Source of the DNA: Octopus vulgaris
Lineage: Eukaryota
Assembly: GCA_951406725.2 (NCBI GenBank)
Contig: OX597825.1
Location: 85,064,001 to 85,128,000, forward strand
Direction: 5' to 3'
Length of the DNA: 64,000 nucleotides
Each line of letters opens with the position of its first letter. Positions within the stretch are counted from its first letter, which is position 1. The notes beneath the pieces were generated by a model, which did no database searches, was not told where the DNA came from, and worked only from the letters and a program-made list of their open reading frames with translations. The position numbers and the translations under genes were made by a program. Of this stretch, positions 5,370 to 53,365 are shown piece by piece.

Positions 5370-5600
5370 CTTATAATAAGAAATTCATTAACCCCATGGG
5401 TTGCTGTATACGTGCGTAGAGTACAATTTTATTGTTCTTCCTAAGAGTAATATTAACAATTACTTCGAAGTTTCGCCCACTTAATCAATCTTCGGACGAT
5501 GGCTAAATTGGCCGAAACTTCGAAGTCAATCATATATTTCATGAAGAATTATAACACATTTTCCTACATATGTATATATGAATTTTTTGCGTAATAAGAT
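5370..5600. repeat. Degenerate fold-back centred on an HHR-like motif
   Basis: acttcgaagtttcgccca pairs with tggccgaaacttcgaagt; the + strand reads cggacga-tggctaaattggcc-GAAA-cttcgaag-TC. Confidence 0.65.
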
Positions 5601-5831: not shown

Positions 5832-6120
<289 letters not shown>

Positions 6121-6159: not shown

Positions 6160-6486
6160 GTCGGCGGAATTTGAACTCAGAATGTAAAGACAGACGAAAT
6201 ACCGCTAAGCATTTCGCCCGGCTTGCTCACATTTCGCCCGGCTTGCTTATTTCTTATTTCTTTGTTGCCTACAAGGAGCTAAACACGGAGGGGACAAACA
6301 AGGACAAAGTGATATTAAGTTGATTACATCGACCCCAGTGCATAAGTGGTACTTAATTTATCGACCCCCGAAAGAAGGAAAGGCAAAGTCTACCTCGGTG
6401 GAATTTGAACTCAGGACGTAAAGACAGACGAAATACCGCTAAGCATTTCGCCCGGTGTGCTAACGTTTCTGTCAACTCACCGTCTT
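6160..6486 (-). mobile_element. SINE A full copy (6248-6486) followed by a second partial head (6160-6247)
   Basis: Duplicated ggaatttgaactcag...gaaataccgctaagcatttcgcccgg. Confidence 0.9.
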
Positions 6487-7092
6487 ACAGACTCACACAC
6501 GAACGATGCTGCAGACCTTAATTTACTAAATAAATAATTTACTAAATAATTTACTAAAACGTGTTCTCCTAATATTTAGAAATATATACTGGACCTTTGA
6601 GCAGTTCTTAAATTTCGCATACCTTTCCCAACTTCCTACTGCTCTCAATAAAACGTGTTAGACACAGAAGCTTTCGCTACACTTAAACATGAATCTTTGT
6701 AGAAAGCCCAACGGCCTATCTACGACAACCTACGCTTCATTTCATACAGTCAAAAAGCGGCTTTTATAAATCTCAGTTATCACATCCCAGATACTGGTTA
6801 GATTTAAAGAATTTTATCACATTTTCTTGCGATTTTCCCTTTATTACCAGCGGCCACTGTGCATTGAAACTCAATGAAAATTTTAAAAAACCAATCGGAT
6901 TTTATATAGAACTCAACTAAATAGAGACTAATAATTTTGCGGAAACAGAAAACTCAAGTTCTTAACAGATGTTGCAGGGACGTAAACTCATCAGCATCGG
7001 TTATCAAGCGATGGCAGGGGGGCGTAAACACTTACACACGAACATACACCCACACACACATATATATATATATATATATACATATATAATAC

Positions 7093-7995: not shown

Positions 7996-8370
7996 GTGCA
8001 TATTTTTATTTATGTATGAAAAGCTATTTGAAAACAGCAAATATTTCAAAGAGCGTCAACAACAAGTGAAATGATGCCAGAGGGCAAGTGACGTACATTG
8101 AATGTTGATGTAGTGAAAGCCAACAAAGAGTTGAACACAAACGCATCAACAATGCTGCTTATGAATAAGAGACGCAATAATCGCCGTGAATAGAACTGCT
8201 TCTATCTTACATACAGCGTTAACTATTTTATTAATGTATTACAGACAGACGTAGATACACATTCCTCAGCAAACTCCCACCCACGCGCAGACAAATATTC
8301 AGCGTATGTAAGATACAGGTCTTGTTTAATATATCTGTGCGTAAAACTATCTACCTATCAATCTATATTA

Positions 8371-8684
8371 TATCACCGTCATCATAGTGACCGACCAGGC
8401 TATCAGATGTGGTAACATATCGCTGGTCACAATGCGCTTCGCATTGTTTTAGCCTTCAACTGACGCCACCCCGCTGGCTAAGCGAGCAGGCCAACAGAAG
8501 AAAGAGTGAGAGAAATTTGTTGCGAAATAATACAGCAGGGATCACCACCACCTCCTGTCGGAGCCTCGTGGAGAATTAGGTGTTTTCGCTCAATAAACAC
8601 TCACAGCGCCCGGTCTGGGAATCGAAACCGCAATCCTACGACCGTGAATCCGCTGCCCTAACCACTGGGCCATTGCGCCTCCAC
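8371..8684 (-). mobile_element. SINE family B (tRNA-derived head gtggaggcgcaatggcccagtggttagggc...ggtttcgattccc)
   Basis: A-box and B-box-like motifs; closely similar copy at 52957-53246. Confidence 0.9.
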
Positions 8685-8781
<97 letters not shown>

Positions 8782-13798: not shown

Positions 13799-14350
<552 letters not shown>

Positions 14351-22083: not shown

Positions 22084-22389
22084 TTGTAATATATATTTAA
22101 TATATATATGTATATATGTGTATACATGTGTGTATAGCATTTTCTTTCCATCATTTCCCTCCTTCATATTTCTAGATATATTTGTAATTAAATGCCACTC
22201 TCTGTCTCAATACAATTCATTTGTCGTATCTTGTCTTCCTCTCCCTGTTTCTCCAAGTTTTCTTTCATTCCTGTATCTTATTCTTTATATCCACTTCTCT
22301 GTGTCTGTCTGTTTCTCTTTTTCACTTTGAATATATACAAATATATATATACATATATCAAAATAAGCAACAAGGATATCCAGAAGTAA

Positions 22390-22476
22390 TGCAGTACGAT
22401 CGTTTCATGTAACTCCATTTAATTGAGAAATGCAATCATTACATCAATTTAAAATGTAGACCAATCTTCAGCTGCA
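22390..22476 (-). ncRNA. Type I hammerhead ribozyme motif (inverted arm)
   Basis: Reverse complement tgcag-CTGAAGA-[~58 nt]-GAAA-c-gatc-g-TA-ctgca. Confidence 0.7.
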
Positions 22477-22608
22477 CTAATACATAAAATTTAATTAAAT
22501 TAAAACAGACGGGTACATTAGTATAATTATATCTAAAATCTTGGAGATTTAGGTATAATTATACTAATGTGTCCAAACGTTCTAATTTAATTAACTTCTA
22601 TGTCTTTG

Positions 22609-22695
22609 TGCAGCTGAAGATTTCTCTATATTTTAAATTGCTATAATGATTGCATTGTTCAATTAAATGGCGTTGCATGAAACGATCGTACTGCA
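22609..22695 (+). ncRNA. Type I hammerhead ribozyme motif (direct arm)
   Basis: tgcag-CTGAAGA(22614-22620)-[~58 nt]-GAAA-c-gatc-g-TA-ctgca; predicted cleavage after GUA at 22690. Confidence 0.7.
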
Positions 22696-22880
22696 TTACC
22701 TCTGGATATACTTGTTGCTTATCTTGGTTTTAATCACCTTACTTTGAAGTTGTATGCATAATACCGTACTAAATTCTGGTGCCTTTAACTTAAGTACCAT
22801 ATTCATCTGAATCTAAATTTTTGCTGAACTCATCTATCATACCCATATCTATCATACCCATATATTTATACGTATTCTTA

Positions 22881-25793: not shown

Positions 25794-26385
25794 GGACGGC
25801 GAGCTGGCAGAAACGGGCGAAATGCTTAGCGCTATTTCGTGTGCCGTTACGTTCTGAGTTCAAATTCCGCCGAGGTCGACTTTGCCTTTCATCCTTTCGG
25901 GGTCGATTACATAAGTACCAGTTACGCACTGGGGTCGGTATAATCGACTTAATCCGTTTGTCTGTCCTTGTTTGTCCTCTTTGTGTTTAGCCTTTTGTGG
26001 GTTGTAAAGAAATAGGTATTTCGTGTGCCGTTACGTTCCGAGTTCAAATTCCGCCGAGGTCGACTTTGCCTTTCATTCTTTCGGGGTCGATTACATAAGT
26101 ACCAGTTATGCACTGGGGTCGATATAATCGACTTAATCCGTTTGTCTGTCCTTGTTTGTCCTCTCTGTGTTTAGCCCCTTGTGGGTAGTAAGGAAATAGG
26201 TATTTCGTTTGCCGTTACGTTCCGAGTTCAAATTCCGCCGAAGTCGACTTTGCCTTTCATCCTTTCGGGATCGATTAAAGAAGTTCCAGTTACACACTGG
26301 GGTCGATGTAATCGACTTAATTCCTTTGTCTGTCTTTGTTTGTCTCCTCTATGTTTAGCCCCCTGTGGGTTGTAGAGAAAGAGAT
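25794..26385 (+). mobile_element. Head-to-tail SINE A trimer (period ~184 bp; restarts at ~26016 and ~26199)
   Basis: Three near-identical tatttcg...gttcaaattccgccga...gcctttcat..ttcggg...aaagaaata units. Confidence 0.95.
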
Positions 26386-50921: not shown

Positions 50922-51044
50922 ATTTAAGCAGTGCAAAATATATAGGTGTTTAATAGCTGTTTTTCTGAGGCACATACCAGTATGTGCCCAGAAACACATA
51001 AGCCATATCGATACATATACCTTCAAAAAGGGACTCATATACGC

Positions 51045-51094
<50 letters not shown>

Positions 51095-51200
51095 ATGTGT
51101 GTGTGTACATATGTGTATATATATATGTATATGTATATATGTATATATGTATGTATGTATGTATGTATGTGTGTGTATCTGTATATATATATATATATAT

Positions 51201-51658
51201 AGGAAATCCGTTGGAAAAACAAAAACAGAACAGAGGCGGAGCAAAAACAAATCGAACTATGCTCCTAAGAGCCCATGGCGAAACCATGGGCTCTTAGGAG
51301 CATAGTTCGATTTGTTTTTGCTCCGCCTCTGTTCTGTTTTTGTTTTTCCAACGGATTTCCTATTTTCTTCCTGAAGAGAAAGACACAATATGGTCCCATT
51401 ATTCCATCGGATTTTGGTAATTTGTGCCTTTCGAAACACGTGTAGAATGAAATAAAACGATTTCTGTTCAATCTGCGTTCAGCTCCATTTCTTCAATTCA
51501 CCAATAATGTTCTAATTTCAATTATCCGCACCAACGCACGGTTGCAACACCATATGGTTGTACCTCCAACCGTGCTGTTTTACTGCTGTGATTTTTGCTA
51601 CTAAGGTATCGGTTAAACTTTTGATTAATCTACTACAAGATTATTCATCTTTCTATTT

Positions 51659-51660
<2 letters not shown>
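51201..51660 (+). mobile_element. Fold-back element in (TA)n: perfect 78-bp arms (51201-51278 and 51284-51361), loop CGAAA, HHR, ~200-bp tail
   Basis: No mismatch seen between the arms; (TA)n on both sides. Confidence 0.92.
51363..51452 (+). ncRNA. Type I hammerhead ribozyme with intact core
   Basis: ttttcttc-CTGAAGA(51371-77)-gaaagacacaa...ttgtgcctttc-GAAA-c-acgt-g-TA-gaatgaaa; predicted cleavage after 51444. Confidence 0.8.
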
Positions 51661-51717
<57 letters not shown>

Positions 51718-51859: not shown

Positions 51860-52104
51860 TAAAATATTCCATATGCAGCTAATGATTGCTCTACATTTTA
51901 ATACTGATGTAATACTTGCATTGTTTAATTAAATGAAGTCGCATGAAACGATCGTACTACACTACCTTTGGATATCCTTGTTGCTTATTTTGATTATAAT
52001 CACCGCATTCTGGTTTATATGGATAATACCATACCAAATTCTGGTGCCTTTAACTGGAGTACCATATTCAACTGAATCTAAATTTTTACTGAACTTATAA
52101 TACC

Positions 52105-52105
<1 letters not shown>
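51860..52105 (+). mobile_element. Family H2 direct copy, degenerate HHR core
   Basis: gcagctaatga...catgaaacgatcgtactac...ggatatccttgttgcttat...aaattctggtgcctttaact; ends at (TA)n. Confidence 0.85.
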
Positions 52106-52136
<31 letters not shown>

Positions 52137-52923: not shown

Positions 52924-52956
<33 letters not shown>

Positions 52957-53246
52957 ACCGTGATCACCGTGACCGACCAATCTATCAGATGTTGCTACAC
53001 ATCGCTAGTCACAATGCGCTCCGCATTGTTTTAGCCTTCAAATGACGCCACCCCGCTGGTTAAGCGAGCAAGCCAACAGAAGAAAGAGTGAGAGAAAGTT
53101 TTGGCGAAAGCGAACAGCAGGGGTCGCCACCACCCTCTGCCGGAGCCTCGTGGAGTTTTAGGTGTTTTCGCTCAGTAAACACTCACAACACCCGATCCTA
53201 CGCCGGCGAGTCCGCTGCCCTAACCACTGGGCCATTGCGCCTCCAC
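52957..53246 (-). mobile_element. SINE B copy
   Basis: Closely similar to 8371-8684 with an internal deletion. Confidence 0.9.
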
Positions 53247-53313
53247 ATACATACATACATACATACATACATACATACATACATACATACATGCATACAT
53301 AATACATAAATAC

Positions 53314-53365
<52 letters not shown>

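What the first reader, a model, noticed from the sequence alone, without database searches (positions are those of the whole stretch)
51201..51660. Perfect fold-back plus intact hammerhead ribozyme module inserted in (TA)n
Seen: (TA)n, a perfect 78-bp hairpin with a CGAAA loop, then immediately an intact type I HHR core (CUGAAGA, long stem II gaaagacacaa/uugugccuuuc, GAAA, stem III c-ACGU-g, GUA triplet, stem I), then a tail containing another hairpin (gcacggttg...caaccgtgc, ~51536-51575), then (TA)n. No ORF. Established: Penelope-like elements carry minimal type I HHRs with palindromic stem III in their pseudo-LTRs and often have inverted 5' ends. Inference: this is a recent, possibly still mobile, non-coding ribozyme retroelement; identical arms imply a young age.
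Basis: partly seen in the sequence, partly recalled or inferred. Interest (0 to 1): 0.8.

Follow-up and report, generated by a model that had tools for sequence, protein, structure and literature searches.

The report
Folded-back Penelope stub with hammerhead
This 460-base insert in a TA repeat is the cut-off tail of a longer, abundant repeat, joined head to head to a short reversed copy of itself and carrying a hammerhead ribozyme motif; it is likely a dead leftover of a Penelope-like jumping gene, a known and ordinary arrangement.

Summary
In detail: (TA)n, identical inverted arms (51199-51278 / 51284-51363), a complete type I hammerhead motif (predicted cut after 51444), a tail hairpin, (TA)n. 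The reading as a self-contained mobile non-coding element does not hold. In all 4 public runs laid, the family goes on upstream of 51284 (1401 more letters in one contig). In 3 of 4 the five 'loop' letters are the reverse complement of that upstream sequence. So the hairpin is a head-to-head join of a short inverted copy and a 5'-truncated direct copy of a longer repeat. The repeat body is abundant (800-1085 contigs in 3 of 4 runs); fold-back joints are at near single-copy depth. Two other unrelated fold-backs beside (TA)n lie in the same window, one with a second hammerhead family. This anatomy is described for endonuclease-positive Penelope-like elements; the hammerhead pattern and (TA)n target fit the Hydra clade best. 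The link to an RT/GIY-YIG frame could not be tested. The monomer is predicted nearly inactive, a dimer active. One hint of more: inverted arms end within 3 bases of each other in 4 of 5 other joints. New member of a known kind; modest interest.

The parts
51048..51201 (.). Left (TA)n-rich microsatellite, the likely target
   Evidence: shares 3 letters (ATA/TAT) with the arm end
51202..51283 (-). Short inverted copy of the parent repeat: 5 letters from upstream of 51284 (the 'loop', 51279-51283) plus the stretch equal to 51284-51360
   Evidence: loose ends before 51284 end in the reverse complement of the loop in X1, X11, X17; one letter differs in X5
51284..51661 (+). 5'-truncated direct copy: 3' end of a longer, abundant repeat
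   Evidence: 8, 1085, 800 and 893 contigs laid in X1, X5, X11, X17; family goes on upstream in 4 of 4
51361..51454 (+). Type I hammerhead motif, Hydra-like pattern; predicted cut after 51444
   Evidence: pattern compared with File S2 of PMC8557442
51436..51443 (+). 8-nt self-complementary stem III/loop III that would pair two copies into a double hammerhead
   Evidence: (duplex -10.3 kcal/mol)
51508..51511 (+). Alternative 3' end of the family: other copies run into (TA)n here
   Evidence: table 7: X11 (1 and 2 contigs), X17 (2 and 6 contigs)
51536..51575 (+). Hairpin in the 150-nt 3' extension, beside AC-rich letters
51662..51716 (.). Right (TA)n
   Evidence: X1 record 3 also runs into (AT)n behind 51664

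Best explanation
The insert is a 5'-truncated 3' end of a longer, abundant repeat joined head to head to a short inverted copy of the same repeat, and it is likely the dead product of one insertion of an endonuclease-positive Penelope-like retroelement, probably of the Hydra type, into a (TA)n run. Shown: the two-copy anatomy, the longer parent, the templated loop, the (TA)n flanks, several 3' ends on (TA)n. Inferred: the element's endonuclease nicked both strands of (TA)n; its reverse transcriptase started internally on the RNA at two sites (near 51661 for the right copy, near 51360 for the left); both cDNAs stopped near 51284 and were joined at a short natural palindrome (CCATGG), by fold-back priming of the left cDNA or by end joining. 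The hammerhead is the element's usual 3'-end passenger. It is predicted to cut only as a dimer or with protein help, so it is probably silent in this lone copy. The mobile unit would be the parent (at least about 1.8 kb), not the fold-back.
For: Parent continues upstream in 4 of 4 runs; X1 record 1 has 1401 letters before the part matching 51284-51345 with no difference; X1 record 3 matches 51316-51664 with no difference, then (AT)n. Loop equals parent sequence reversed in 3 of 4 runs. Run X5 holds 5 other joints in which the same inverted arm meets the sense strand at other places (51284, 51324, 51364, 51452, 51476), each at depth 33-44, so such joints form repeatedly and are not amplified. 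Two unrelated fold-backs with a one-sided tail beside (TA)n are in the window: 13883-14105 (97% arms) and 22359-22726 (87% arms), the second with another hammerhead family. Literature: inverted 5'-truncated copy at the 5' end, one-sided tail, (TA)n bias, no visible TSD (PMC8557442); head-to-head joints at palindromes (PMC3846280); both strands cut and extended, internal RT starts, protein-assisted HHR (PMC11167929); Hydra elements target (TA)n and carry CUGAWGA(G/U)...(C/U)GAA-AC-NN..NN-GU-H hammerheads near the 3' end, one with an inverted 5' copy. Folding: active monomer -14.4 against -16.2 kcal/mol for the free fold, stem III pair probability 0.02; active dimer -43.9 against -44.1 for the free dimer.
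Against: No RT or GIY-YIG frame was seen: the 1401 upstream letters could not be read and no genome is held. The offsets between 3' ends (150 and 300 nt) are longer than the 30-40 nt tail in print. No loose end on (TA)n at 51360-51363 is among those shown (91 not shown). No tandem pseudo-LTR arrangement was seen. Rfam does not call the hammerhead, the fold is no better than shuffles, and no compensatory changes were tested. The published Hydra-1_Obim hammerhead differs in sequence from this one. The exact joint of this locus is not listed in any run laid.
Confidence: 0.75

Rival explanations
1. Same insertion mechanism, but the parent is a non-autonomous, non-coding hammerhead element (a longer internal-deletion form, or a short RNA started inside the 3' repeat) moved in trans by a Penelope-like protein.
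For: Non-autonomous PLE derivatives and PLE-derived retrozymes are in print. In 4 of 5 X5 joints the inverted arm ends within parent positions -5 to -7, as here, which would fit a fixed RNA 5' end (chance 0.002-0.07 by the assumed detectable range). No coding frame was seen.
Against: Copies that go on upstream exist in 4 of 4 runs. Summed depth rises gradually from 51284 to about 51470, as for scattered 5' truncation (the tool warns depth is no copy number). Joints are listed only where local depth is low, so the clustering may be a listing bias. No tandem units as in retrozymes (one search shows none here).
Confidence: 0.16
2. The 460-base fold-back plus hammerhead is itself a young mobile unit.
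For: Identical arms, full core, clean (TA)n ends; X5 has one near-identical joint (two extra letters behind 51283).
Against: Depth over the left-arm bin is 239 in X5 and 0 in X1, X11, X17, against 100,000 or more on the body in X5 and X17; the 5 joints differ from each other; a transcript of the whole would form a 77-bp duplex; one hammerhead cannot release a unit.
Confidence: 0.04
3. The perfect palindrome is a sequencing or assembly artefact.
For: Arms have no mismatch; no listed run holds all sampled words (best 0.92), and the share of words special to the joint is 0.09; the exact joint is not listed.
Against: The loop letters come from parent sequence that is not otherwise at this locus, which a fold-back chimera of this locus could not supply; like joints stand in X5; older fold-backs with diverged arms lie in the same window.
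Confidence: 0.03
4. A MITE or fold-back DNA transposon that happens to hold a hammerhead-like motif.
For: Long inverted repeat in TA-rich flanks.
Against: The arms are not terminal (300 letters lie outside on one side), the family is one-sided with 3' ends on (TA)n and runs on upstream; the motif is rare by chance.
Confidence: 0.02

Closest known systems
[quoted passage not shown] 2021, PMC8557442; e.g. Penelope-13_HM, Hydra-1_Obim, Hydra-1_cRog)
   Same: (TA)n target; sense-strand type I hammerhead about 100-425 nt from the 3' end; core and 4-bp palindromic stem III of the same pattern; a 5'-truncated inverted copy at the 5' end is recorded for Penelope-13_HM.
   Different: Stem II is longer, with a 33-nt inner part; sequence differs from Hydra-1_Obim; the protein, which defines the clade, was not seen.
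Insertion units of endonuclease-positive PLEs in general (Penelope/Poseidon, Neptune; PMC3846280, PMC11167929)
   Same: Head-to-head inverted copy, joint at a short palindrome, one-sided 3' extension, several 3' ends, AT-rich target, no clear TSD.
   Different: 3' ends are 150 and 300 nt apart, not 30-40; the inverted arm stops before the hammerhead; no tandem pseudo-LTR seen here.
Minimal PLE hammerheads (Cervera and de la Pena 2014, PMC4209133)
   Same: Type I, long helix II with G10.1-C11.1, palindromic helix III, predicted to need a dimer; U-rich 5' and AU-rich 3' flanks.
   Different: No bulged letter between 9 and 10.1 in the best fold; helix III is present (2 bp and a 4-nt loop); helix I may reach 9 bp.
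Non-LTR retrozymes (PMC7229834; bioRxiv 10.64898/2026.07.22.740005)
   Same: Non-coding stretch with a type I hammerhead, AT-rich, PLE-related.
   Different: Not tandem, one hammerhead, part of a longer repeat, has an inverted arm.

Membership tests
Type I hammerhead ribozyme | Core CUGANGA, GAAA, UH with three helices in type I order | tested here: met
Type I hammerhead ribozyme | Match to an Rfam hammerhead model | tested here: not met
   the long stem II insert may be the cause (inference)
Type I hammerhead ribozyme | Compensatory changes across copies | not tested
   copies could not be fetched; one search lists no frequent change in the core letters, but most contigs are over 90% alike, so this says little
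Type I hammerhead ribozyme | Self-cleavage after 51444 | not testable with these tools
   only folding energies
Endonuclease-positive Penelope-like element | Frame with PLE-type RT and GIY-YIG endonuclease in the full-length element | not testable with these tools
   no genome; upstream letters of X1 record 1 not readable; none in 101 of 278 window frames scanned
Endonuclease-positive Penelope-like element | 5' truncation with inverted 5'-truncated copy at the 5' end | tested here: met
Endonuclease-positive Penelope-like element | Sense-strand hammerhead near the 3' end | tested here: met
   motif starts 151 and 301 nt before the two 3' ends
Endonuclease-positive Penelope-like element | Optional 30-40 nt tail at one end | tested here: inconclusive
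   optional extension exists but is 150 nt
Endonuclease-positive Penelope-like element | Partial tandem forming pseudo-LTRs | not testable with these tools
   needs full-length copies
Hydra clade | (TA)n insertion and Hydra-like hammerhead pattern | tested here: met
   (compared by eye)
Hydra clade | RWK and DKT motifs, CxCX5C linker, no CCHH in the endonuclease | not testable with these tools
   protein not in hand; features
Naiad clade | (TA)n target but no canonical hammerhead | tested here: not met
   a canonical core is present
Non-LTR retrozyme | Head-to-tail tandem units of a few hundred bases, one hammerhead each | tested here: not met
   no 'goes back' joint listed
MITE / fold-back DNA transposon | Inverted repeats at both termini | tested here: not met
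   right arm ends 300 nt inside the insert

The most novel reading that the evidence does not exclude
The inverted arms of this family end at one fixed point 5-7 bases upstream of 51284 because a short (about 385-nt) non-coding hammerhead RNA starts or is processed there. That RNA would be copied on both target strands by a Penelope-like dimer from three start sites about 150 nt apart, making a solo-3'-repeat, SINE-like parasite. The family would then be a young, thousand-copy natural record of two-strand priming by Penelope-like elements.
Probability: 0.15. Interest if true: 0.55.

Novelty: new member of a known kind. Interest (0 to 1): 0.27.

Why it matters
As one locus it is ordinary: the arrangement is in print and the window holds two more of the kind. 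Its value is as a handle on a young, abundant family in three organisms. How Penelope-like elements make head-to-head inversions is still open (PMC8557442). A family with many single-copy joints and at least two 3' ends can test fold-back priming against two-strand priming by counting arm ends genome-wide. It also gives a natural long-stem-II hammerhead that Rfam misses.

Tried and rejected
No own genome is held, so copy number and linkage to a frame could not be counted in the assembly. Run search: no RNA holder listed; X1 is only guessed to be RNA, so nothing is claimed on expression. An 18-letter exact scan of JGI metagenomes gave 35 loci, 35 of 35 chance matches without further likeness (one search was a script error). 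Exact window patterns found 0 in genome contigs and 0 in viral contigs. A looser hammerhead pattern gave 12 viral and 98 genome loci; 6 of 112 matches had stems I and II, none of this family and none beside a recognisable PLE frame on inspection of frames of 150 aa or more. Pfam on 101 of 278 non-repetitive window frames: 2 weak hits under cut-off, no RT or GIY-YIG. The 48-codon open frame 51516-51659 found no homologue among longer proteins (weak evidence). Rfam microRNA and snoRNA matches are all far below cut-off and reflect the long hairpin; rejected. No tRNA. Motif searches of the supplements of PMC8557442 and PMC4209133 found 0 matches to this family (line breaks may hide a match; one file of PMC4209133 was not searched). 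Earlier notes of this scan: none by sequence or place, one similar case in another genome by words. Naiad, retrozyme and MITE readings rejected as in the membership table.

Full report
What is there. Between two (TA)n arrays (51048-51201 and 51662-51716) lie 460 bases. The first 160 are a perfect inverted repeat: arms 51199-51278 and 51284-51363, 80 bp with no mismatch, 77 bp without the three letters shared with (TA)n, five letters between. Right behind is a type I hammerhead motif with every core letter: stem I 51361-51370 with 51445-51454, CUGAAGA at 51371, a ten-pair stem II round a 33-nt inner part, GAAA, an 8-nt palindrome at 51436-51443, predicted cut after 51444. My descriptor finds only this match on both strands of the window; 100 resampled windows gave 0.04 on average (descriptor written after seeing the motif). 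Against it: Rfam has no hammerhead match at gathering score or at E up to 10, and the region folds no better than 73 of 200 shuffles. The tail hairpin is real. No long frame lies on either strand.

The window is eukaryotic, very rich in microsatellites (165 rows) and without recognisable genes in 101 of 278 frames scanned. It looks octopus-like to me; that label is recalled from the repeat landscape and comes from no call. If right, Penelope-like elements fill 6.83% of the Octopus vulgaris genome in 190 families (PMC13282606, supplement row seen).

The decisive result is. No own genome is held. Of 24 runs listed, 20 hold 68-92% of the sampled words, in 8 studies, three coded organisms and one wastewater metagenome; several are only 21-74 million letters. 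I laid 4 of them (X1, X5, X11, X17; four studies) on 51262-51668. They gave 8, 1085, 800 and 893 contigs. In 4 of 4, contigs go on upstream of 51284 with one shared sequence; X1 record 1 has 1401 such letters. That sequence ends in the reverse complement of the 'loop' in X1, X11 and X17 (one letter differs in the X5 row). So the loop is templated, and the fold-back is an inverted copy (parent -5 to +77) joined head to head to a direct copy (+1 to +378). X1 record 3 matches 51316-51664 with no difference and runs into (AT)n; it overlaps record 1 by 30 letters, so I infer a parent of at least about 1.8 kb identical to this copy. Other copies end on (TA)n at 51508-51511 (X11, X17). The best DNA holder may be the source of the window, so X5 is not surely independent.

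The fold-back is not amplified. X5 holds five other joints in which the same inverted arm meets the sense strand at 51284 (two extra letters), 51324, 51364, 51452 and 51476, at depths 44, 33, 40, 39 and 34; the body of the repeat has summed depths of 100,000 to 1.3 million there. The left-arm bin has 239 in X5 and 0 in the other three runs. The tool warns that summed depth is no copy number; taking the joints as single copy, I estimate hundreds to tens of thousands of copies for the body and at most about 6 for left-arm joints (rough inference). The exact joint of this locus is not listed; an exact contig would show in no table of differences, and table 8 is cut (2778 rows not shown). No run holds all words (best 0.92), and words special to the joint are 35 of 382, so the joint is probably absent from X1.

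The same build recurs in the window with unrelated sequence: 13883-14105 (arms 97% alike, about 110-nt tail, then (TA)n) and 22359-22726 (arms 87% alike, tail to about 22860). The second carries another hammerhead family in both arms, with a decayed non-inverted copy at 51874-52112. All three joints lie next to short palindromes. Diverged arms show that such structures are genomic and age.

How it likely works. Shown: anatomy, longer parent, templated loop, several 3' ends on (TA)n, repeated single-copy joints. Inferred from known Penelope-like biology: the endonuclease nicks (TA)n; reverse transcription starts inside the RNA; both strands are extended (PMC11167929, parts 1-2 of 4 read, which also report a predicted dimer, a protein-assisted hammerhead not needed for insertion in vitro, and no RNA ends at the cut site). 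The top strand here reads antisense through the loop and then sense, which fits fold-back priming of an antisense strand (proposed in PMC3846280, passages seen). The 300 letters beyond the arm need a second cDNA primed at the right (TA)n; plain end joining of two cDNAs fits as well. Folding predicts the active monomer 1.8 kcal/mol above a fold that hides the core, with stem III pairs at probability 0.02, while an active double hammerhead is within 0.2 kcal/mol of the best dimer fold. This agrees with PLE hammerheads being inactive as monomers and weak as dimers (PMC4209133, parts 1-2 of 4 and part 2 of supplement 2 read). A lone copy is therefore probably silent.

Comparison. Inverted 5'-truncated copies, one-sided tails and (TA)n bias are standard for endonuclease-positive PLEs (PMC8557442: passages, section 11, part 2 of the supplement and search hits; PMC8969392, passages). 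The Hydra table shows (TA)n targets and hammerheads with the same core and a 4-bp palindromic stem III; Penelope-13_HM has an inverted 5' copy. Hydra-1_Obim has a different hammerhead sequence. Naiads lack the canonical motif. Retrozymes are tandem (PMC7229834, passages; bioRxiv 10.64898/2026.07.22.740005, part 1 of 5 and passages; its supplements are closed and might list related families). The defining RT-endonuclease frame was not testable, so 'works like a PLE insertion' is better supported than 'is a Hydra member' (I put the clade at about even odds). I found no description of this family in paper searches (listings and abstracts) or motif searches of two supplements; Repbase and Dfam could not be searched and may well hold it.

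What does not fit. The 3' ends are 150 and 300 nt apart, not 30-40. The left arm's end at 51360-51363 is not among the loose ends shown (91 hidden). In 4 of 5 X5 joints the inverted arm stops 5-7 bases upstream of 51284, as here; chance is 0.002 to 0.07 for a detectable range of 20 to 8 positions. But joints are listed only where they reach 5% of local depth, and my stretch began at 51262, so this is a hint. If real, it marks a fixed RNA 5' end and a short non-coding template.

Verdict. Observation confirmed; interpretation partly supported. New member of a known kind, interest 0.27; the bolder reading has probability 0.15 and would deserve 0.55.

Noticed in passing
window 13883-14217: Unrelated fold-back (arms 97% alike, 10-nt centre) with a 110-nt tail between (TA)n arrays; the tail holds what may be a decayed hammerhead core with a GGC/GCC stem and GAAA.
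   Followed up: partly
window 22359-22860 and 51874-52112: A second, older hammerhead family (6-bp stem I, long stem II region, palindromic stem III) in the Hydra-like pattern: in both arms of a fold-back at 22 kb and as a decayed direct copy 200 bases right of the finding. My descriptors missed it.
   Followed up: partly
window 5978-6120, 5462-5526, 50958-50998: Weaker inverted repeats (71-86% alike), the first directly beside (TA)n.
   Followed up: no
window 25833-26380 and 6246-6487; 8348-8780 and 52931-53348: SINE-like dispersed repeats; one family forms a 184-bp tandem of three units.
   Followed up: no
window 51578-51621: Public contigs show diverged subfamilies that differ in the tail hairpin region but keep its right arm; at 51405 and 51512 most family depth in organisms B and C has another letter, while X1 matches the window.
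   Followed up: no
L052, L088, L089: Contigs filed in one bacterial MAG carry dispersed type I hammerheads with the same 8-nt palindromic stem III, one locus with two of them about 2.4 kb apart; probably animal host DNA in the bin.
   Followed up: partly
L040:276-305: A hammerhead-like match with 4-bp stems I and II in a viral contig, overlapping a 275-aa frame that looks like a nucleotidyltransferase (label recalled, untested).
   Followed up: no
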